Assembly: GCA_031408295.1 (NCBI GenBank)
Contig: JANNVW010000103.1
Span: forward strand, 9,270-73,269
Origin: Ferruginibacter sp.
Lineage (GTDB): Bacteria; Bacteroidota; Bacteroidia; Chitinophagales; Chitinophagaceae
Direction: 5' to 3'
DNA length: 64,000 nucleotides
Positions 23,087 to 35,651 of this stretch are shown here, in pieces (the first letter of the stretch is position 1; each line of letters begins with the position of its first letter). A program made the translations under genes and the position numbers. The notes beneath the pieces were generated by a model. The model saw only the letters and a program-made list of their open reading frames with translations. It was not told the DNA's origin and ran no database searches.

Positions 23087-24226
23087 TTATTGTTTACCAA
23101 AGATAAGTGCTGCATTGCAGCCTCCAAAACCAGAAGCTGTTTTTAAACAATTTCTTAGGCTGGTTTTTTGCAAGCTACTACAAATGTTTATGGGTTCTGT
23201 TACACCTATATTTTCAAACCCCTTGGTGGGTATTATTATATTTTCTTTTAAAGAATGAATAGCTATAATAGCTTCTATAACACCCGCTGCACCAAGTGTA
23301 TGGCCATAATAACCTTTCAAACTATTGGTAGGTACATGTTGCATATTGGCTAGTGTAATGGCTTTAGCCTCCATTTCATCGTTGTAAATAGTAGCAGTGC
23401 CATGTGCCGAAATAAAATCAACATCATTTGGAGAAAATAGTTTTGCTTCCTTCATGGCTTTAGTGATAGCAATATTAAGCTCCTCACCAGTACGAGATGG
23501 GCCAGAAATATGGTTGGCATCGTTACTAACAGAGCCTCCCATTATTTTTATATCTTGAGAAGTTTTTTTATTAGCCGAAAGAATAATAGTAGCAGCACCT
23601 TCGCCTAAATTTATACCATTTCTATTGGCATCAAAAGGTTTGCAAGGGTTTTCGCTAATGGCATTAAAAGATTGAAAGCCTGACAATACAAATTTTGAAA
23701 TGGCATCTGCCCCAGCCACAACTACATTATCATACTGTCCAGCTTGTATTAAACGCATACCAGTTAATATAGCCAGTAAGCCAGATATACAGGCATTGGA
23801 AACCACAATGGGTTTGCTTACAAATTTAAAATGTGAGGCTATCAAATTTGCAGAGCTACTTAAAGAAATTTTTTGTTGTAAACTGGGACTATACGTTTCC
23901 GTTTCTAACAAACCAATATTGCCTTTGGTAGAAGAAACGACAAGCCCTGTTTTTTTATCCGAAACATTTATACTACTATTTTCTAACGCTTTACTTATGG
24001 ACGCAATTAGTATTTTTTCAAATTTTGTAAAATTATTATTCAAGCTATTCAATAAAAAATGTTCATCTCCATTAAACAATGCACTATAAAAAGGCACTGC
24101 GGACATGCTTGCATTGCTATGCATTTTTATACCTGATACATTATTTTGTACCTGCAAAAAATTTTCTGCACTGTTACTACCTATTGGCGATAAAATATTG
24201 TCTGAAATAATAAAAACATCTTTCAT
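23087..24226 (-). CDS. beta-ketoacyl-ACP synthase (third KS)
   Basis: Active-site Cys in SNACISGLLAI, plus HGTAT, GHTLGAAG and SGFGGCNA. Confidence 0.85.
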   Translation of the reverse strand: MKDVFIISDNILSPIGSNSAENFLQVQNNVSGIKMHSNASMSAVPFYSALFNGDEHFLLNSLNNNFTKFEKILIASISKALENSSINVSDKKTGLVVSSTKGNIGLLETETYSPSLQQKISLSSSANLIASHFKFVSKPIVVSNACISGLLAILTGMRLIQAGQYDNVVVAGADAISKFVLSGFQSFNAISENPCKPFDANRNGINLGEGAATIILSANKKTSQDIKIMGGSVSNDANHISGPSRTGEELNIAITKAMKEAKLFSPNDVDFISAHGTATIYNDEMEAKAITLANMQHVPTNSLKGYYGHTLGAAGVIEAIIAIHSLKENIIIPTKGFENIGVTEPINICSSLQKTSLRNCLKTASGFGGCNAALIFGKQ

Positions 24227-24232
24227 ATACTG

Positions 24233-24658
24233 CTAATTCAACCCAATGCTTTTTTTCCAATCTTCAAAAAAAGGAGGGTTGGAGAGTTGTAAAATAGATT
24301 CCTCTTTATCTAAAAAAACTTGTACTGAGTAACCCGTAGCCACAAGCTCATTATTCAATGCATTGTATAAACGATACTCAAATCTTAGTTTTGCTGCTAC
24401 ACTAGGCACATAGGTTGTTTCCACAATAATTTTATCGCCATAGCGTACCGATTTTTTAAAATCGCAATGCACACTCACCACAGGTATTACAAACCCTTGT
24501 TTATATACGTCAAGGTAGCTCAAGCCATTCATATTGCCATAAGCTTCTCTTCCATCTTCAAAATATCTAATGTAATTGCCATGCCAAACAATACCCAATG
24601 GGTCGGCTTCATTAAAACGAATCAACAGCTCTATCTTACAACTCAGTTTTTTTTCCAT
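24233..24658 (-). CDS. acyl-CoA/acyl-ACP thioesterase (4HBT/YbgC-like hot-dog)
   Basis: ATG at 24658 gives MEKKLSCKIELLIRFNEADPLGIVWHGNYIRYFEDGREA. The upstream 41 codons of the track ORF look non-coding. Confidence 0.75.
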   Translation of the reverse strand: MEKKLSCKIELLIRFNEADPLGIVWHGNYIRYFEDGREAYGNMNGLSYLDVYKQGFVIPVVSVHCDFKKSVRYGDKIIVETTYVPSVAAKLRFEYRLYNALNNELVATGYSVQVFLDKEESILQLSNPPFFEDWKKSIGLN

Positions 24659-24889
24659 AAGGACTAAAATGATAATATTATCCGCTGTTGAGGTTAATGG
24701 AAATTCCAATATTGCTATTTGTAAAAAACAACAACATTGAAGAGCGATTAATATCATGCAAATTAATCGTTTCAGCACCAAAATTCAAATTATTATTTAA
24801 AACCAAAGCTTAAGAAGTTGCGTAGTTTGTAAGAAATTAACTAAAATGTTAAAGTTTATTGAAAATGATTCATCTATAAATTTACCAGT

Positions 24890-24937: not shown

Positions 24938-25673
24938 ATGAAAAAGATTATCTTATTTTCTGCATTTGCAGTTTCTTACATCACCTCAATGGCTCAAGTA
25001 AGTTTTGGAGCTCAAGCAGGTGTTAACTTGGCTTTTGGTAAAGCAGCTACAGATATTGTAGATCCTTTTTTTAACACTACACTTACAAATGATCCCAAAG
25101 CAGGATTTACTGTAGGTGTTCTTGCGGAAATTCCACTTGGTGAAAAATTTGCTTTTAGACCAGAGCTCAATTTTATTCAAAAAGGAAGTACAACTGGTAT
25201 TTCGAATGCGCTTTTTTGGATTTGACCCACAGCAAAAAATTACATTGAATTATGTAGAACTTCCTTTAAATGTAGTTTATAAATTAAATGTAGGTAGTGG
25301 AAATTTCTTTTTTGGACTTGGTCCTGCTGTAGCTTTTGGAATATCTGGAAAGGTAAAATTAAGTGATCCATCAGACCCAACTGACACAGATTTAAATAGA
25401 ACTGCAAAAGTAAAATTTGATGGTAAGAAAAATGATGTTTTACCAGCAACTGATAATGATGCACATTTAAAAAGAATAGATGTTGGCGTAAATGCATTAG
25501 CAGGTTACAAATTGCAAAATGGACTCTTCTTTAAACTTGGATATAACTATGGTGTTTTAAACATTGATCCTAATAAAGAAAATGCACTACCACAAAACCA
25601 AACTACCTATAAGAACAGAGGATTTAATATTTGTATAGGTTATATGATTGGAGGTTCTAAAAATGATGATTAA
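24938..25673 (+). pseudogene. outer-membrane beta-barrel (porin-family/OMP_b-brl_2-like) gene split by a +1 frameshift in a T6 run
   Basis: ORFs 24938-25225 (signal peptide MKKIILFSAFAVSYITSMAQ) and 25116-25673 are two halves of one ~245-aa OMP. Deleting one T from 25212-25217 gives ...GISNALFGFDPQQKITLNYVELPL... Confidence 0.65.
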
Positions 25674-25834: not shown

Positions 25835-26066
25835 AGGTTTTTCACAAGCATTTACCTACTAGTATAAAATAACCTACAGTGAAACCCTGATGCAGAAAAG
25901 GAATTCAATTAGTGGAAACTAAAACTCGACGCTCTTAGAATACAGGGTTTTCGCAAGTATAACCCCTTGTAATACAAAAGAACCTACTGTGAAATCACGA
26001 CACAGAAAGAAATTCAATTAATGGAAACTAAAATTCGGGGTTTATACCAGCTTGCGGGTTTAGAAC
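25835..26066. repeat. tandem array (~110-bp period, 2+ units) of degenerate GGTTTTTCAC/GTGAAACCC hairpin elements
   Basis: aacctacagtgaaa at 25871 vs aacctactgtgaaa at 25981. gaattcaattagtggaaactaaaactcg vs aaattcaattaatggaaactaaaattcg. Confidence 0.75.
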
Positions 26067-26121: not shown

Positions 26122-26454
26122 TTAGTTTATATTTTTATCACTTGAGATATTAGGCAAAGTAGTTACTTTAAATTCACCCTGCTTCAGTTTGGCACTGTGG
26201 CCAAATGTATTTACAAGATTACGATTCATAATCTCTAATACAGTATCTAATTCTTCTTTTGTTGCAGTATTTCCTCTATACACACCCAGCTTTTCTCCGC
26301 TTACTCTTTCTTTAAAATGAACCCACTCAAAAGTTTTATCTGCTTTTTGTTTTGCTAAAAGTTTATAATAACCAGTACCACTAATATAGCTGCTCATTAA
26401 GGCATAAATTATTTCTTCGTCTTTATCAATACTTAATATTGGTATAGGTTTCAT
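26122..26454 (-). CDS. hypothetical protein
   Basis: 110-aa ORF between two hairpin-repeat copies. No motif recognised. Confidence 0.4.
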   Translation of the reverse strand: MKPIPILSIDKDEEIIYALMSSYISGTGYYKLLAKQKADKTFEWVHFKERVSGEKLGVYRGNTATKEELDTVLEIMNRNLVNTFGHSAKLKQGEFKVTTLPNISSDKNIN

Positions 26455-27090: not shown

Positions 27091-27183
27091 TATGTCAAAG
27101 CTATAAAAAAGATTAGTTACAGTATTAAAAACTAAAATTATGCGTTAAGAAAGTTTTCCTTAACAACTTGTCTAGAAAAATTG

Positions 27184-27191
27184 TACATTTG
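27184..27191 (+). promoter_or_regulatory. candidate -7 box (TAnnTTTG)
   Basis: TACATTTG lies 19 nt upstream of the antitoxin ATG. It is the same octamer as upstream of the XRE gene at 18169. Confidence 0.3.
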
Positions 27192-27209
27192 GTTATTAAT
27201 ATTTCGAGT

Positions 27210-27461
27210 ATGAAAACATTAACCGTTGGCGAATTTAAAGCGCAATTTAGTAGTGTAATAGAAATGATAAAAGCCGGTGAAGAAGTGGAAGTAACTTTTG
27301 GAAAACAAAAGGAAGTTATTGGTGTGTTTAAACCAAAGGAAAAGAAGAAGGATACAAGGGTGAAAATCGGATTGCTTAATAATATGAAAGGCTATAGAAT
27401 GGCAAAAGATTTTACCGAAACAACTTTTGAAGATTTCCCCATGAAAGAATTATATGAATAA
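27210..27461 (+). CDS. type II antitoxin (Phd/YefM-like)
   Basis: MKTLTVGEFKAQFSSVIEMIKAGEEVEVTFGK. 83 aa. Overlaps the downstream PIN gene by 8 nt. Confidence 0.65.
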   Translation: MKTLTVGEFKAQFSSVIEMIKAGEEVEVTFGKQKEVIGVFKPKEKKKDTRVKIGLLNNMKGYRMAKDFTETTFEDFPMKELYE

Positions 27462-27855
27462 ATTTTTAATGGATACCCATATTTTATTGTGGCTTTATTT
27501 TAATTCAGATAAATTATCAAAAAATGTCAATTCACTTTTTAAACAAAGTGGGAATACCTTTTATGTGAGTACTGTTTCTATTTGGGAGATTAGTATAAAA
27601 TTTCATTTAGGAAAACTTGACTTAGGTAATTTGAATCCATTCGATTTAAGAAACTTGATTCTAGAAAATAATATTAAAATTATCAATCTTGATTCTGATA
27701 CTGCCGCTACTTTGTTTCAATTAAATGCCACTTACCACAAAGACCCTTTCGACAGAATGCTTATTTGGCAAGCTATACAAAACAATTATACTTTTATTAC
27801 TGATGATAAAAATATAAAATTGTACAAAAGTGAAGGCTTAAAAACGGTTTGGTAA
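27454..27855 (+). CDS. vapC: type II toxin, PIN domain (VapC family)
   Basis: LMDTHILLWL N-terminal acidic motif, SIWEISIK, and DPFDRMLIWQA...ITDD C-terminal acidic residues. Confidence 0.8.
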   Translation: MNKFLMDTHILLWLYFNSDKLSKNVNSLFKQSGNTFYVSTVSIWEISIKFHLGKLDLGNLNPFDLRNLILENNIKIINLDSDTAATLFQLNATYHKDPFDRMLIWQAIQNNYTFITDDKNIKLYKSEGLKTVW

Positions 27856-27876
27856 TTTAGTATAATATAGATTCCT

Positions 27877-28941
27877 TTAATTACTATCACCTACTAAATC
27901 CTCGTTATCATTCAAAGAAAAGTAATGTCTTTTTTCATTCCTTGCATAACGTTCCTTCCCACTATAATTTCCTAATATTTGTTTTTCACCAAATGCCTTC
28001 CAAAAGATTGTGAGATTATTTTCTTTTAAGAATTTTATAAAAGGTTTCTTTTTTACTAATAAGCATGACAAGCTTTTATTATTTACAGAAGGGTCAAAGC
28101 AAATAAGTTCATTCTCTTGGTTTACAAATTCACCTTCATGTTTCCCTTGTTTCATATTAAGCCCTTTAAACAAAAAGTAACTTGGCTTTAAAAACCTTAG
28201 TGCCTCTTCTTTAGAACAATCAAATTCTTCTTCCCATAAATAATTACAATAGGGCAAATAAGCTTTACTTATTAGTTTATCGTCCTTTCTATCAGTAATC
28301 TCAACCTCTATTTCTCCTCTGTAGTAATTTTTTTGAAAAAAAGCATGTGCCTTTGACCAATAATACTCCCTGCTAAATACCTGATAACGCTGCCCCGCTT
28401 CGGGAAATGATAGAATCCAAAAAGTTTTTGCTTTAACTAATTTATCAATTTCATTTTTACTTTCTTTAGGGATTATGTAACTTTCTATATGATACCAAAG
28501 TCTTTTATATGAAGTGCCAAATGAATTTTCAGTTATTTCTTTAGGTTCTCTCCATTGTGGAGAGCCATCTAGTAGAAGCCACTCATTTTCATCATTTTCT
28601 TTAAAAGCAATAATTTCTGAAATACTTGGGAAATCAATTTTTTTATTCATCCAAACTTCATTTTTAAAATCCCAATTCGAGTAGTTTGTTTTAAACCACC
28701 AATTATTACAATTTTTTTCATCCTGCTTTGTAGATGATATTAAAATCGTTGGGTCAATATCTCTTACATAGGGATACCATGTACCTTTGTAAATTGCTTT
28801 CTCTTTAAACCCATATTCTTGAATTAACGGAAAATTGTCTGCTACTCGTGCCAAGGATTCATAAAATAAAATCCATTGATACTTTTTTCCAATTCTTTCT
28901 TTATGTCCTTCACTTCTTCCTGAATATTTATTTGAATCAAA
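27877..28941 (-). CDS. aromatic-rich domain of unknown function, in frame with and directly continuing the upstream STAND NTPase ORF after one TAG
   Basis: The 29 sense codons at 28855-28941 link the TAG (28942-28944) to the track ORF, which starts only at a TTG (28854). No ATG occurs in the first ~95 codons. Confidence 0.55.
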   Translation of the reverse strand, partial: FDSNKYSGRSEGHKERIGKKYQWILFYESLARVADNFPLIQEYGFKEKAIYKGTWYPYVRDIDPTILISSTKQDEKNCNNWWFKTNYSNWDFKNEVWMNKKIDFPSISEIIAFKENDENEWLLLDGSPQWREPKEITENSFGTSYKRLWYHIESYIIPKESKNEIDKLVKAKTFWILSFPEAGQRYQVFSREYYWSKAHAFFQKNYYRGEIEVEITDRKDDKLISKAYLPYCNYLWEEEFDCSKEEALRFLKPSYFLFKGLNMKQGKHEGEFVNQENELICFDPSVNNKSLSCLLVKKKPFIKFLKENNLTIFWKAFGEKQILGNYSGKERYARNEKRHYFSLNDNEDLVGDSN

Positions 28942-31900
28942 CTATCCATGTGTTTCCGATTTATATCCTAATTTAAAGATTTCTTCTACGGCCCAATTAC
29001 TCCATTTGTTAGCATCAACTTTAAAATGCGAAAGCCCTCTTTCAAATGTATATCTTCCAAAATCTCCATATCTCGAAGTTCCTCTTCCATATTCTGTGAC
29101 CATTGAATCTAATATTGCATTTTGTCCTCTATCGGAATCTTTAAATTTTTTTGATTTATAATCAATTTTATATTTTTTATCAATTTCTGTATTTGTAGGA
29201 AATTTATTTGGCAAATCACTTTTATATGGCGGTTGTATTTTGGCTAAATCAAATTTTAATTTTATTCCTGAGTGAATTGTGAAATCTATAACTCCTTTTG
29301 CATAATCCCTCAAAAGAATATGCGGATATACTTTCTCTTTATTAAAAATTTCCTCAAATATGTATTCACTTAATTCTTTCAGAGCACTTAGTTTTTCAGA
29401 GCGTACAGCACTTCCATAGGCTACAGCAAATAATCTCTCATAAACATAAGGGTCATTTACATTTTCAAATTTTTGTAATAATGGTTTTAGCAATTGAATT
29501 CTATTTTCTAGGAGATTAACTAAACCTTTTGTAGCTGCATCTCTTAAATACCTATTACAGCTAGTAAGAAACCAAGCTAAGGTCATTGAAGTGAGTAATA
29601 TCACATCATCATCTACATAACTTTTATCTTCTTCCTGCCATGACCAATCAATGAGTCTTTTTACTATTGAGTTGTAGTCATATTTATCATTTATATAAAT
29701 TGTCCACCAAGCATCTCTACTAGCTAGGGTATATCTCAATAATTGTTTATGTAAAAAATCTGCATTAAAAAAATGATTGGGTCTAACAGATACTGAGATT
29801 AACATTTCAAGAAATTTCTCATTTGTTCCATTATATTTTATTGCTACTAAATTTACATATTCAAGAGTTTTCTCTGTAAAAGATTCACTTTTCCTCCAAA
29901 ATATACTTTCAATAAATGCTTCACATATAGAAAAACACTTTTGAACTCTTGGTACTAATTCGTACAATTCTTTTTTAATTCTTTCAGGTAATTGAATGGA
30001 TAAGGCTTCAAGTATTCCTTGATTCATAGAGCAATCATTTTCAGACTTTGTGATTTCATACAAATAACCGGATTTGAACGCTAAGAGAGGATTTTTTTTA
30101 TTGACGATATATTTGTCTATTATAGCAGAAGCAAATAGGTGGTCTTCAAATCTTTCATAAGCTAAATAAATACCTTTTTCATGAGTTGTATATGTTCTAT
30201 CCCAATATAAATCTTCACTAAAAATCCCTTCCGAAATTAACATGTCAAAATAATTACTCCCTTTAGTACAATTTTTTCTAAATATTTCATGTGCAACTTC
30301 ATATGCATATGCATAGGGGATATATCTTTTTTTATTCTCAACCTTCCACTCTAAAAGTGAATCAATTACTCTTTGTACAAGATTTATAGAAGGTGAAAAA
30401 TCCAGATTTTTGGGATTAGAAAGTTTTTCATTAACACTATCAATAAAAAAGTTAAAAGATTGCTTTATACCCCAAAAACCATCAGTAAGTTTTTTTAATC
30501 CTCTATTGACTAATCCTTCACATAATAGTTTTAAAAATAGAGGGTTTTGAAATTCGGGTTGAAACAACGGCATATTAGGTTGCTCAATACCATAGGCTAG
30601 AAAAAAATGCTTAGCAGCTTCATATTCAAATCCTCCAAAACCATTGTGATAAACACGTAACATATCATCATCAGTAATGATTTCTTGGGGCGCTATTAAT
30701 TTTATGTATGAAGTTCTTATTGAAACGACTAAACCTAACCATTTAAACTTTTTTATCAAATCAATAAAGTTCTTTAAATAATCTGACCAAAAGTTTTTAC
30801 CATTTCCTTCATTTAAAGCGTCTATAAAAATAATGATGCGTTTACCTGTAGATTCTGCTTTCGAATTTAATGCGCCAAGGAAAACATATTCGTTTGATGG
30901 GAAACGAAGTTGGTTACTTAAAATCTGAGTCCACGGATTATCATCGTTTGTAAAATGTTGCCCAAGGAGAAAAAGACTCAGATAACCATTTTTATAACGA
31001 TTGTTAACAATGTCAGCAAGTAAATGTGACTTTCCCATTCCTGCTTTACTTTCAATTATTAAATATGGTGAGTTTACAAGAGTACAAGTTTGAGAATTTA
31101 GGAATTCACTTAATTCATTTAATGACCGACTTAAAAGTCGTAAATAATGTATTTCATTATTATTAGGCTTTATTGAATATTTATATTTGTCAGGGTCTTT
31201 CTGAACCTCCAATTGTTGAGATGAATACAGTTCTTGATTATAAGTATCACAACTTTCAATAGTAGAAGTAATTATATTTTGAATAAGAATATAGTCAATA
31301 TTTTTAATATCACTTAAATCTAATCCTTTAAACCAAATTATAATTTTTTCAAAATCAGTAATAATTTTTTTTACTACCTTTTTTTTACTTTTACTGTTAA
31401 GATGTGAATTAATATTTCCAAATTTTTCAAAAATGTTTTTAAAATAAACGTCTATTTGGCTTTTTAGATTTTCATCTCTAGCAAATCCATCAAACATTTT
31501 TGCGATAGGCAATTCAAAATTTAATTTAGGAGTATATCTTTTATTGAGAAGAATTTGTGTAGCATTTTTAATATTATCTTCAAACCAATCATCAGTAAAT
31601 TCTGTTTTGTTAAACCAAAAATAAATCATTCCCTCATGTTCTCTTTTTGAAAGCATTTCTACTAATTCGAAATACCCCCAATAAATGAACTTTACGTTCA
31701 TGCCTTTTTCCTGTGATAACTTTTCCCATTCTTTTACTTTTATATCCCATTTATCAAGCATAGATTTTTTACCGACTAATTTTGCATCAGGCATGTTAAT
31801 TGGAATTGCAACATAATATATAACTAATTTAGGATGTTTATCTAAGGCTGTTTTAACCGATTCATCTAAATCTCTCCATTGGGTATTGCCTAAAGAATTT

Positions 31901-32106
31901 AAAAAATATTTAGCTTGCCATCCCCATTCTGTATCATCATTCATTTGCAATATACATTCTACTCCAGCATCGGGTTTACCCTTTCTTATAAAACGTTTTG
32001 AATTTATGGGGTTTATTTTCCTTGCTAGTTGGCATACCAACTCCTCAAAACCCTCGTCTTGTTTACCATTAATTGTCCGAATATTTAAGAAATTAATATC
32101 TGTCAC
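28942..32106 (-). CDS. Mrr-like PD-(D/E)xK nuclease + NACHT/STAND-type P-loop NTPase + helical repeat region (candidate antiphage Avs/bNACHT-like protein)
   Basis: GTG start. N-terminal GFEELVCQLA...GKPDAGVECIL...WGWQAKYF (31909-31971). Walker A SKAGMGKS (31027-31050). Walker B IIIFIDALNEG. More than 600 aa of helical sequence follow. Confidence 0.65.
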   Translation of the reverse strand: MTDINFLNIRTINGKQDEGFEELVCQLARKINPINSKRFIRKGKPDAGVECILQMNDDTEWGWQAKYFLNSLGNTQWRDLDESVKTALDKHPKLVIYYVAIPINMPDAKLVGKKSMLDKWDIKVKEWEKLSQEKGMNVKFIYWGYFELVEMLSKREHEGMIYFWFNKTEFTDDWFEDNIKNATQILLNKRYTPKLNFELPIAKMFDGFARDENLKSQIDVYFKNIFEKFGNINSHLNSKSKKKVVKKIITDFEKIIIWFKGLDLSDIKNIDYILIQNIITSTIESCDTYNQELYSSQQLEVQKDPDKYKYSIKPNNNEIHYLRLLSRSLNELSEFLNSQTCTLVNSPYLIIESKAGMGKSHLLADIVNNRYKNGYLSLFLLGQHFTNDDNPWTQILSNQLRFPSNEYVFLGALNSKAESTGKRIIIFIDALNEGNGKNFWSDYLKNFIDLIKKFKWLGLVVSIRTSYIKLIAPQEIITDDDMLRVYHNGFGGFEYEAAKHFFLAYGIEQPNMPLFQPEFQNPLFLKLLCEGLVNRGLKKLTDGFWGIKQSFNFFIDSVNEKLSNPKNLDFSPSINLVQRVIDSLLEWKVENKKRYIPYAYAYEVAHEIFRKNCTKGSNYFDMLISEGIFSEDLYWDRTYTTHEKGIYLAYERFEDHLFASAIIDKYIVNKKNPLLAFKSGYLYEITKSENDCSMNQGILEALSIQLPERIKKELYELVPRVQKCFSICEAFIESIFWRKSESFTEKTLEYVNLVAIKYNGTNEKFLEMLISVSVRPNHFFNADFLHKQLLRYTLASRDAWWTIYINDKYDYNSIVKRLIDWSWQEEDKSYVDDDVILLTSMTLAWFLTSCNRYLRDAATKGLVNLLENRIQLLKPLLQKFENVNDPYVYERLFAVAYGSAVRSEKLSALKELSEYIFEEIFNKEKVYPHILLRDYAKGVIDFTIHSGIKLKFDLAKIQPPYKSDLPNKFPTNTEIDKKYKIDYKSKKFKDSDRGQNAILDSMVTEYGRGTSRYGDFGRYTFERGLSHFKVDANKWSNWAVEEIFKLGYKSETHG

Positions 32107-32348
32107 TTGACTAAATTTTATTTGGTATAAATTTTATCTTTCTCTGCTAAGGTAATTTATTTGAAACATATCAACTAATAATTTTAGTATTTATAGTTTA
32201 GGATCTCTAGGGTTAAGTTCACAAGAATTAAAATTTGTTGCATAAAATATTTTTTACCGAACAATAAACTTGGCAAAAAACAATCTATTTTTTTACTGAT
32301 AAAATTTGCGGTAAGTAAAACTTCATAATATTTTAAGCTTCTTTTCTG

Positions 32349-32410
32349 CATTGGGGTTTCGCAGTAAACTTTCATTCAATTTAAAGATTCTAATTGCGAA
32401 AACCCCAATG
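32349..32410. repeat. GGGGTTTCGC ... GCGAAAACCCC palindromic hairpin element (copy F)
   Basis: Arms cattggggtttcgca (32349-32363) and tgcgaaaaccccaatg (32395-32410), with a 31-nt AT-rich loop. Confidence 0.85.
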
Positions 32411-32485
32411 GGACATCCCCCTAAAATCCATTTGATAAAAATTATTTTCCCCAACATTTTTTATCCTTTATATTCGTTTATCAAA

Positions 32486-34601: not shown

Positions 34602-35651
34602 ATGCATATAATTAGACTTTTCGTTTCATTAGCTTTCCTATTATTGTTTTTTTCTTGCAAAAATGAAAATAAATATAAGTATGCAATAAAAGATTTTAGA
34701 AAAATAATTCAACCTGCGCTTACTAATCTAGTATCAAAAGCCGTTGTTGAGTATTATGATAGCACGATTAGGTTTTCAGTTACAGATAATGAATTAGAAA
34801 AACTAAACAAATCTGAACATCCCATTTTGAGAGGTATGGCCTTGCAGGAAATGCTACGAAGAGAAACCTTCAATCATTTTGATTTAATTAATAATAATCT
34901 AGATGATACAGCAGAAGTACAAACCGATGCTGGTGAATTTGGAATATGGAACATGAAAGTTTCTGATTTTCTTTTGCAGAATGGGAAATGGAAAACAATT
35001 GAAGATAAAAATAAAACAATTGATATACTTCTAAGAAAACATAATTATTTAAGGTCTGCTCATTTAATTGCTTCAAGAATTGAACCACAAGAAAAATATT
35101 ACAGTATAATAAAGGAAATGGCGCAAAGAGAATTACTTTTTGAAGAAATTGAATACTCGACTTACGCTTTAGCACAATATAAAAAAGCCGAAGACACATC
35201 TATCATTAGAAAAATACTAAATGATAATTGGTATCAATTGAATGAACTTTCATTTAAATTGATGAGTGAATTTCCAAGTGAAAATTATATGGATGTTTAT
35301 GAAAAATATTATAAAAGAAAGTTTTATAATATAATTTGCGAAGAAGGGAAAGATACTAAAGCTATTGACTTTTTAAAATCTTTAGCAAGTTACAAAAATG
35401 AAAAAAGCGCTTCGATTCTAAATGCTATTTTAAATAAACAACCTTTTTTGCGTTGCGGTGCTCAATATGATTGGATAAAGTCTAGTTTGATTGATATAAT
35501 TTGGCAAAATAAGTGCAAAGCTTACGAGAAAATGTGTACTCAAATTGCTAGCACTGTTAAAGAGAATGAAAAAAATAAAATTGAGTTGTTTCCTAATAAT
35601 GATGTTAATCTTCCAGTACAAGAACCATCAAAAGAACCCATTGGATGGTAA
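34602..35651 (+). CDS. hypothetical lipoprotein
   Basis: Signal/lipobox LLLFFSC. 349 aa, helical. Confidence 0.45.
   Translation: MHIIRLFVSLAFLLLFFSCKNENKYKYAIKDFRKIIQPALTNLVSKAVVEYYDSTIRFSVTDNELEKLNKSEHPILRGMALQEMLRRETFNHFDLINNNLDDTAEVQTDAGEFGIWNMKVSDFLLQNGKWKTIEDKNKTIDILLRKHNYLRSAHLIASRIEPQEKYYSIIKEMAQRELLFEEIEYSTYALAQYKKAEDTSIIRKILNDNWYQLNELSFKLMSEFPSENYMDVYEKYYKRKFYNIICEEGKDTKAIDFLKSLASYKNEKSASILNAILNKQPFLRCGAQYDWIKSSLIDIIWQNKCKAYEKMCTQIASTVKENEKNKIELFPNNDVNLPVQEPSKEPIGW

What the first reader, a model, noticed from the sequence alone, without database searches (positions are those of the whole stretch)
27877..32106. Giant Mrr-like nuclease + NACHT/STAND NTPase gene with an uncharacterised aromatic-rich C-terminal module: candidate undescribed defence system
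Seen: residues ~18-66 (GFEELVCQLA...GKPDAGVECIL...WGWQAKYF) fit the helix-E / D / (E,Q)xK layout of Mrr-type PD-(D/E)xK nucleases. Walker A SKAGMGKS and the NACHT-style Walker B IIIFIDALNEG follow at residues 353-433. After that come >600 aa of helical sequence and a 354-codon W/Y/F-rich region with no motif I recognise. Known: antiphage Avs/AVAST and bNACHT proteins have this effector-NTPase-sensor order. Context: the gene sits next to a VapC toxin-antitoxin pair and is bracketed by repeat elements.
Basis: partly seen in the sequence, partly recalled or inferred. Interest (0 to 1): 0.85.

Follow-up and report, generated by a model that had tools for sequence, protein, structure and literature searches.

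The report
Broken copy of Avs2 antiphage gene
This is an ordinary member of the well-studied Avs2 family of bacterial antiviral sensors (Mrr-like nuclease, STAND ATPase, terminase-sensing tail), cut in two by one premature stop codon, so it is probably a recently inactivated defence gene and not a new system.

Summary
The "giant gene" is not one open gene, though. A single in-frame TAG at window 28942-28944 splits the 1,409-codon frame into a 1,054-aa ORF and a 354-codon tail.

Both parts match Avs2 (AVAST type 2):
- PADLOC Avs2 models, E=0.
- The NCBIfam Avs2 equivalog, 1,331 bits for the read-through against a cutoff of 1,000.
- The solved EcAvs2 structure 9O4E, E 2.6e-174 and 1.6e-76.

An AlphaFold model of the N-terminal 190 aa (pLDDT 88) best matches the N-terminal region of EcAvs4. 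This region is a PD-(D/E)xK nuclease, and the literature names Mrr-like nucleases as the commonest Avs2 effector. The "uncharacterised aromatic-rich" tail is the known C-terminal sensor that binds phage terminase.

All 119 other listed homologs are uninterrupted (1,385-1,456 aa), and the closest have Glu where this copy has TAG. Deleting the equivalent region of KpAvs2 (Δ1066-1352) abolishes defence.

Close Ferruginibacter relatives have the same toxin-antitoxin pair directly next to the GH13 gene. Avs2 is therefore a 4.6-kb accessory insertion, and the toxin-antitoxin pair is not part of it.

Verdict: a known system, probably a recent pseudogene, of low interest.

The parts
28942..32106 (-). 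Avs2 ORF A (1,054 aa, GTG start): Mrr-like PD-(D/E)xK nuclease (res 1-~170), helical extension, STAND ATPase (Walker A K359, Walker B D429) and most of the TPR region. It ends at the premature TAG.
   Evidence: PADLOC Avs2 PDLC02164 at 1152 bits, E=0. NCBIfam NF041813 at 966 bits. PDB 9o4e_A at E 2.6e-174, residues 170-980 aligned to 165-965. Motif positions.
31537..32106 (-). N-terminal effector domain (res 1-190): PD-(D/E)xK nuclease fold, Mrr-like, with invariant E21/E22, D46, E50 and Q64-x-K66.
   Evidence: Alignment A1. AF2 model with pLDDT 87.8 and an alpha-beta-beta-beta-alpha-beta core. Foldseek top hit 8dgf (EcAvs4): prob 1.0, E 2.6e-5, TMq 0.62. Next come SfsA, Card1, LmuA, NucS and AF1548. 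The profile hit to EcAvs4 residues 2-94 has E 0.07.
28942..28944 (-). Premature in-frame TAG stop codon after residue 1054 (...KSETHG*FDSNKY...).
   Evidence: Homologs have E/S/Q/V/K/Y/D at this column, and the closest have E. The Logan assembly L001 is identical here.
27877..28941 (-). Avs2 C-terminal sensor region (354 codons, same frame, beyond the TAG). The only in-frame start in the 89 codons scanned after the TAG is the TTG at 28854.
   Evidence: PDB 9o4e_A residues 1130-1472, E 1.6e-76. NCBIfam Avs2 profile 969-1313/1317 at 354 bits. PADLOC Avs2 at 2.4e-81. Start-codon scan.
32107..32419 (-). 5' non-coding region that came in with the Avs2 insertion. It contains a hairpin-forming repeat at 32341-32405.
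   Evidence: Empty-site comparison with L013 and L009. Hairpin energy -21.9 kcal/mol, z -4.0.
27856..32419 (.). About 4.56-kb accessory insertion (Avs2 only) between the vapC stop codon and the GH13 pullulanase gene. GC is about 0.29, against 0.32-0.36 in the flanks.
   Evidence: Relative L013 has the vapC stop 13 nt from the GH13 ATG, and L009 has about 70 nt. Composition.

Best explanation
The locus is a horizontally acquired Avs2 (AVAST type 2) antiphage gene of the common Mrr-like-nuclease type, in a Ferruginibacter genome. It carries a recent nonsense mutation, most simply GAG(Glu) to TAG.

How the intact protein works (inferred from family knowledge):
1. It sits as an inactive monomer.
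2. The ATPase domain of a phage large terminase binds a pocket formed by the helical extension, the TPR region and the beta-rich C-terminal sensor.
3. Binding triggers ATP-dependent tetramerisation through the STAND domain.
4. Tetramerisation brings the N-terminal nuclease domains together.
5. The nucleases degrade DNA non-specifically and abort the infection.

In this copy the stop after residue 1054 removes the whole C-terminal sensor. The product should therefore be unable to recognise phage and is probably non-functional.

Shown here: family membership, the fold of the effector, the stop codon, the insertion and the lack of extra decay.
Inferred: the mechanism (from EcAvs2, KpAvs2, SeAvs3 and EcAvs4 work) and the loss of function (from the KpAvs2 C-terminal deletion).
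For: Family membership:
- PADLOC Avs2 E=0 for ORF A and 2.4e-81 for the tail.
- The NCBIfam Avs2 equivalog scores 1330.9 bits for the read-through (cutoff 1000). ORF A alone scores 966.
- PDB 9O4E EcAvs2 matches at E 2.6e-174 and 1.6e-76.

Effector:
- AF2 model with pLDDT 87.8. Foldseek top hit is EcAvs4 8dgf, followed by other PD-(D/E)xK nucleases.
- E/D/E/QxK residues are invariant.

Stop codon:
- The other 119 listed homologs are continuous, at 1,385-1,456 aa.
- E/Q/K/Y/S occupy the stop column, each one substitution from TAG.
- The conserved ERIGKKYQWI motif lies between the TAG and the first possible restart.
- TAG is used as a normal stop in the window, at 7 of 44 long ORFs.
- A separate assembly of run SRR20217191 has the same base.

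Recency: identity downstream versus upstream of the stop has ratios of 0.78-0.94. This lies within the range for intact homolog pairs, 0.75-1.03.

Loss of function: KpAvs2 Δ1066-1352 loses defence and loses terminase and Ksap1 binding (PMC11564622).

Accessory status: relatives show an empty site. Homologs lie in defence islands or mobilisable elements.
Against: - No read-level data were available, so a consensus base error or a minority intact allele cannot be excluded.
- The tail is free of any further lesion. That would also be expected if it were still expressed, by readthrough or reinitiation.
- No experiment links this protein to phage defence or to terminase sensing.
- The organism's phages are unknown.
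- A neighbouring OMP gene is also broken, by a frameshift in a T6 run. This leaves some doubt about sequence quality or about general gene decay.
Confidence: 0.8

Rival explanations
1. The gene is actually an intact, functional Avs2. On this view the TAG is a sequencing or assembly error, a minority allele, or is read through often enough to make the full-length sensor.
For: - The 354 codons after the TAG are in frame, free of stops and frameshifts, and as conserved as in intact homologs.
- All catalytic and Walker motifs are intact.
- A nearby gene has a homopolymer frameshift that might reflect sequence quality.
Against: - The Logan assembly of SRR20217191 is 100% identical over 5,743 nt, including the TAG. 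It may derive from the same reads as the NCBI record.
- The lesion is a substitution, not a homopolymer indel.
- TAG serves as an ordinary stop elsewhere in the window.
- No recoding signal was looked for or seen.
Confidence: 0.12
2. It is a naturally split two-protein Avs2. ORF A (nuclease-STAND-TPR) and a separately translated C-terminal sensor would assemble in trans.
For: Both pieces are intact ORFs on the same strand, 87 nt apart. The downstream piece shows no decay.
Against: - The two pieces are in the same frame, separated by a single codon.
- The only start in the 89 codons scanned after the TAG is a TTG 29 codons downstream. Using it would discard the family-invariant ERIGKKYQWI motif.
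- The other 119 listed homologs are single polypeptides.
- In the EcAvs2 structure the sensor is a contiguous part of the binding pocket (PMC13601566).
Confidence: 0.04
3. One reading: an undescribed defence system with a novel C-terminal sensor module.
For: Pfam gives no significant domain for any part of the protein. From Pfam alone it looks unannotated.
Against: Avs2-specific models and the solved EcAvs2 structure match from about residue 170 to the end, apart from a short linker around the stop. PADLOC Avs2 models also cover the N-terminal effector.
Confidence: 0.01

Closest known systems
KpAvs2 (Klebsiella pneumoniae Avs2; Béchon et al. 2024, PMC11564622)
   Same: It has the same three-part layout: an Mrr-family nuclease, a STAND NTPase and a long C-terminal phage-recognition domain. 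The nuclease lysine (K71 there, K66 here by motif) and the Walker A lysine (K337 there, K359 here) are essential in KpAvs2. Its Δ1066-1352 mutant is the experimental counterpart of this truncation.
   Different: KpAvs2 is intact and works with the accessory genes Avap1 and Avap2. PADLOC matched none of five neighbouring ORFs tested; the Avap families themselves (radical SAM, DUF6375) were searched for in only three of them (Pfam), without a hit, and the insertion holds only Avs2. I did not align the KpAvs2 sequence directly.
EcAvs2 (E. coli; cryo-EM structure 9O4E, PMC13601566)
   Same: Helical extension, STAND ATPase and TPR (residues 170-980 aligned to 165-965) and the C-terminal sensor (tail residues 7-346 aligned to 1130-1472) are all homologous.
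   Different: EcAvs2 carries a different, uncharacterised N-terminal effector. It is about 75 residues longer, with extra sequence between TPR and sensor. It is uninterrupted.
EcAvs4 (8DGF) N-terminal Mrr-like nuclease
   Same: It is the best structural match for the window's effector domain. They share the G-[VI]-E and G-W-Q-x-K-[YF] motifs.
   Different: Avs4 senses the portal protein with a different sensor. Sequence similarity in the effector is marginal (E 0.07, 16-18% identity).
SeAvs3 (8DGC)
   Same: It is a terminase-sensing Avs that shares the beta-rich C-terminal sensor with Avs2, according to PMC13601566.
   Different: It has a different TPR architecture and, from my recollection of the literature, a Cap4-type nuclease effector. 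It gave no direct sequence hit here at E<=1.

Membership tests
Avs2 (AVAST type 2) | Significant full-length match to Avs2-specific profile HMMs above the curated cutoff | tested here: met
   NCBIfam NF041813 equivalog: 1330.9 bits for the conceptual read-through against a cutoff of 1000. PADLOC Avs2 models score E=0. As encoded, ORF A alone scores 966, just under the cutoff.
Avs2 (AVAST type 2) | [quoted passage not shown] | tested here: met
   GMGKS at 356-360 and IIIFIDALNEG at 424-434. These align to the EcAvs2 ATPase (GIGKS, VFIDAINEG) in 9o4e.
Avs2 (AVAST type 2) | TPR-like helical region followed by the beta-rich C-terminal sensor | tested here: met
   Residues 170-980 align to 9o4e 165-965. 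Tail residues 7-346 align to 9o4e 1130-1472.
Avs2 (AVAST type 2) | N-terminal cell-killing effector (most often an Mrr-like nuclease) | tested here: met
   AF2 and Foldseek place it in the PD-(D/E)xK fold, closest to the N-terminal region of EcAvs4. Catalytic-type residues are invariant.
Avs2 (AVAST type 2) | Single uninterrupted polypeptide joining effector, ATPase and sensor | tested here: not met
   In-frame TAG at 28942-28944. All other listed homologs are continuous. The locus is therefore an Avs2 gene by descent, but probably not a working Avs2.
Avs2 (AVAST type 2) | Recognition of phage large terminase and protection from phage | not testable with these tools
   This needs co-expression toxicity and plaque assays, or complex modelling. 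No multimer predictor was available.
Mrr-like / PD-(D/E)xK nuclease | alpha-beta-beta-beta-alpha-beta core with acidic residues and a (D/E/Q)xK motif on the central strands | tested here: met
   Model elements are H16-30, E36-41, E51-55, E60-65, H74-90 and E94-100. D46, E50 and Q64-x-K66 are invariant. Structural hits are all PD-(D/E)xK enzymes. No Pfam family matched the isolated domain even at E up to 10, so the assignment rests on fold.
NACHT subfamily of STAND | Match to NACHT-type Pfam models | tested here: inconclusive
   Only a sub-threshold NPHP3_N hit was found (17 bits, cutoff 24.8). Among homologs, a few carry precomputed NPHP3_N, AAA_16 or ATPase_2 hits and one carries a NACHT hit. 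STAND membership is secure. NACHT specifically is not shown.
VapBC type II toxin-antitoxin (neighbour) | PIN toxin with an overlapping upstream antitoxin gene | tested here: met
   PIN at 1.8e-13. The upstream 97-aa ORF overlaps it by 8 nt and has a weak Phd/YefM hit at 0.0048. The pair is conserved in relatives without Avs2, so it is not part of the Avs2 unit.

The most novel reading that the evidence does not exclude
The TAG is not a dead end. Either low-level readthrough or separate translation of the C-terminal sensor would make this a naturally 'throttled' or two-piece Avs2. Full-length sensor would then be made only rarely, or assembled in trans, as a way to tame a toxic immune nuclease.
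Probability: 0.04. Interest if true: 0.5.

Novelty: already known. Interest (0 to 1): 0.1.

Why it matters
It matters little beyond annotation.
- The locus should be labelled as an Avs2 (AVAST type 2) pseudogene or interrupted gene. It is not two hypothetical proteins and not a new defence system.
- It is a small, clean example of defence-gene turnover. A single-gene Avs2 insertion sits at a variable spot in a Ferruginibacter genome and has been knocked out by one nonsense mutation at the same place as a tested loss-of-function deletion.
- It also shows that Pfam alone misses Avs2 entirely, whereas defence-specific HMMs and the PDB identify it at once.

Tried and rejected
- **Pfam on the whole protein and on the isolated N-terminal domain.** There were no significant hits, so Pfam is uninformative here.
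- **phmmer of the N-terminal domain against PDB sequences.** It returned only spurious DARPin matches.
- **Rfam and tRNA scans around the locus.** Nothing was found, so there is no tRNA integration site.
- **Repeats as insertion borders.** The right copy lies inside the insert and the left copies lie 1.8 kb outside it. They do not define the mobile unit, and no target-site duplication was evident at the junctions.
- **TAG reassignment.** Rejected, because TAG ends 7 of 44 long ORFs in the window.
- **The TA pair as part of the system.** Rejected, because it is present in relatives without Avs2 and has no PADLOC hit.
- **Cluster members P0122 and P0123.** These are unrelated 41-aa peptides and were uninformative.
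- **Gao et al. 2022 (Science).** The paper could not be read because it is not held. I cite it only through PMC13601566 and PMC11564622.
- **First MAFFT run.** It timed out and was redone on fewer sequences.
Full report
**Observation**

On the minus strand, a frame runs from a GTG at 32106 to a stop at 27877-27879.
- GFEELVCQLA at 19-28
- GKPDAGVECIL at 43-53
- WGWQAKYF at 61-68
- SKAGMGKS at 353-360
- IIIFIDALNEG at 424-434

The frame is not open throughout. A TAG at window 28942-28944 follows residue 1054 (...KSETHG*FDSNKY...). Mechanically there are two ORFs: 28942-32106 (1,054 aa) and 27877-28854 (325 aa from the first TTG). They are in the same frame, and 29 codons separate the stop from that TTG. 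It is modestly richer in W/Y/F, at 17.2% against 14.0%.

**What it is**

Pfam sees almost nothing, only a sub-threshold P-loop hit. Defence-specific resources are unambiguous:

| Resource | ORF A | Tail |
|---|---|---|
| PADLOC Avs2 models | E=0, 1152 bits, residues 2-1029 | 2.4e-81 |
| NCBIfam Avs2 equivalog NF041813 (cutoff 1000) | 966 bits | 354 bits |
| PDB 9O4E, "AVAST type 2 anti-phage system protein Avs2" | E 2.6e-174, residues 170-980 to 165-965 | E 1.6e-76, tail residues 7-346 to 1130-1472 |

The conceptual read-through, with Glu placed at the stop, scores 1330.9 bits on the NCBIfam model.

The paper describing 9O4E (PMC13601566) defines the Avs2 layout as follows:
1. N-terminal effector.
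2. Helical extension.
3. STAND ATPase.
4. TPR domain.
5. A beta-strand-rich "C-terminal sensor", which together with the TPR and the helical extension binds the ATPase domain of phage large terminase.

**The effector**

The N-terminal ~170 residues lie outside the NCBIfam model and outside the 9O4E alignment, because EcAvs2 carries a different, rarer effector. I aligned 25 homologous N-termini. E21, E22, P45, D46, E50, Q64 and K66 are invariant.

AlphaFold2 gave a confident model (pLDDT 87.8, pTM 0.79) with an alpha-beta-beta-beta-alpha-beta core. Foldseek against the PDB ranked EcAvs4 (8dgf) first, matched N-terminus to N-terminus (prob 1.0, E 2.6e-5, TMq 0.62). Next came SfsA, Card1, LmuA, NucS, EcoO109I and the Mrr-like AF1548, all PD-(D/E)xK enzymes. 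A sequence profile also picked EcAvs4 residues 2-94 as its best hit, weakly at E 0.07, sharing the GWQxK motif.

The literature agrees. [quoted passage not shown] KpAvs2 has an Mrr-family nuclease whose K71A mutant loses defence (PMC11564622).

**The stop codon**

A search of 5.8 billion proteins returned 1,524 homologs.
- The only exact match is the 1,054-aa ORF itself.
- The other 119 listed are continuous proteins of 1,385-1,456 aa. The nearest is 61% identical, and several are named Avs2 by NCBI.
- At the stop column the closest homologs have Glu. Others have S, Q, V, K, Y or D. Several of these are one substitution from TAG.
- The family-invariant motif ERIGKKYQWI lies between the TAG and the only possible restart (TTG at 28854) in the 89 codons scanned. 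That argues against an evolved two-gene arrangement.
- TAG is an ordinary stop in this genome, ending 7 of 44 long ORFs.
- A separately assembled contig from run SRR20217191 is 100% identical over 5,743 nt, including the TAG.
- The part after the stop is no more diverged from homologs than expected. Its C/N identity ratios are 0.78-0.94, against 0.75-1.03 among intact pairs. The mutation is therefore recent, or less likely, the tail is still expressed.

Functionally, KpAvs2 Δ1066-1352 removes almost exactly this region. That mutant loses defence and loses binding of terminase and Ksap1 (PMC11564622).

**Context**

The flanking GH13 pullulanase gene places the window in Ferruginibacter (Chitinophagaceae). 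It is 87-91% identical to several Ferruginibacter metagenome-assembled genomes.

- In relative L013, the DUF1801 gene and the toxin-antitoxin pair are followed 13 nt later by the GH13 start codon.
- In L009 the gap is about 70 nt.
- L007 has an unrelated 1.2-kb insert at the same spot.

The window therefore carries a ~4.56-kb insertion (about 27856-32419) holding only Avs2 and its 5' region. Its GC is about 0.29, against 0.32-0.36 around it. The VapC/PIN pair predates the insertion, is not part of it, and has no PADLOC hit.

The repeats are a ~65-nt hairpin element. A good copy lies at 32341-32405 inside the insert (-21.9 kcal/mol, z -4.0). Two degenerate tandem copies lie at 25860-26040, 1.8 kb outside the other boundary. 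They do not delimit the insert.

Homologs elsewhere sit among the following neighbours:
- P0002 and P0004: relaxase and coupling-protein genes, and for P0002 also an integrase.
- P0029: Gabija-like, NERD, type I R-M and integrase genes.
- P0062: Wadjet-like and SMC/trypsin/MBL genes.

**Mechanism**

By homology, the intact ancestor would bind phage large terminase in the TPR/C-terminal-sensor pocket. It would then tetramerise through its ATP-bound STAND domain and bring four Mrr-like nuclease domains together. These would degrade DNA and abort the infection (PMC13601566, PMC11564622). This step is inferred, not shown here.

The encoded 1,054-aa product lacks the sensor and is most likely inert. 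I put the recent-pseudogene reading at 0.8. The rivals are:
- Intact gene, sequence error or readthrough: 0.12.
- Split two-protein Avs2: 0.04.
- Undescribed system: about 0.01.

**Verdict**

This is a known system. The architecture call was right and the novelty claim was wrong. Interest is low.

Noticed in passing
window 24938-25673 (+): An outer-membrane beta-barrel gene (Pfam OMP_b-brl_2) is split into two overlapping ORFs. Profile positions 3-69 fall in 24938-25225 and positions 80-173 in 25116-25673. The break is a frameshift at or near a T6 run around 25205-25215. It could be a pseudogene, slipped-strand phase variation or a homopolymer sequencing error.
   Followed up: partly
window 32341-32405, 25860-26040: A ~65-nt repeat with inverted termini (GGGGTTTTCGCA...TGCGAAACCCC). 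The copy upstream of Avs2 and GH13 folds into a strong hairpin (-21.9 kcal/mol, z -4.0). Two degenerate tandem copies (period ~110 nt) lie in the intergenic region at 25.86-26.04 kb. Its function is unknown, and there is no Rfam match.
   Followed up: partly
window 27856 / 32419 junction; loci L013, L009, L007: The gap between vapC and the GH13 pullulanase gene varies among Ferruginibacter relatives. It is empty in L013 and L009. L007 holds a 1.2-kb insert with an aminotransferase-like fragment and an NTF2-like lipoprotein ORF (labels judged by eye from the translations, not tested). The window holds Avs2.
   Followed up: partly
window 27168-27855 (+): A VapBC-like toxin-antitoxin pair: a 97-aa weak Phd/YefM-like ORF overlaps a PIN-domain toxin by 8 nt. 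It is conserved at 77-79% DNA identity in relatives that lack Avs2.
   Followed up: partly
locus L008, 236-1510 (-): In one Ferruginibacter relative, an ORF reading by eye as a C5 DNA cytosine methyltransferase, with a possible restriction-enzyme fragment beside it, lies about 2 kb upstream of the orthologous GH13 gene.
   Followed up: no
window 23087-24781 (-): An ORF that looks like a ketoacyl synthase (not tested) sits directly next to a 4HBT thioesterase (Pfam 7.9e-17). Together with the upstream run of minus-strand ORFs at 20-24 kb, this may be a lipid or aryl-polyene/flexirubin-type biosynthetic cluster.
   Followed up: no
window 34602-35651 (+) and 26122-26454 (-): ORFs of 349 aa and 110 aa have no significant Pfam hit and no PADLOC hit. 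Their function is unknown.
   Followed up: no
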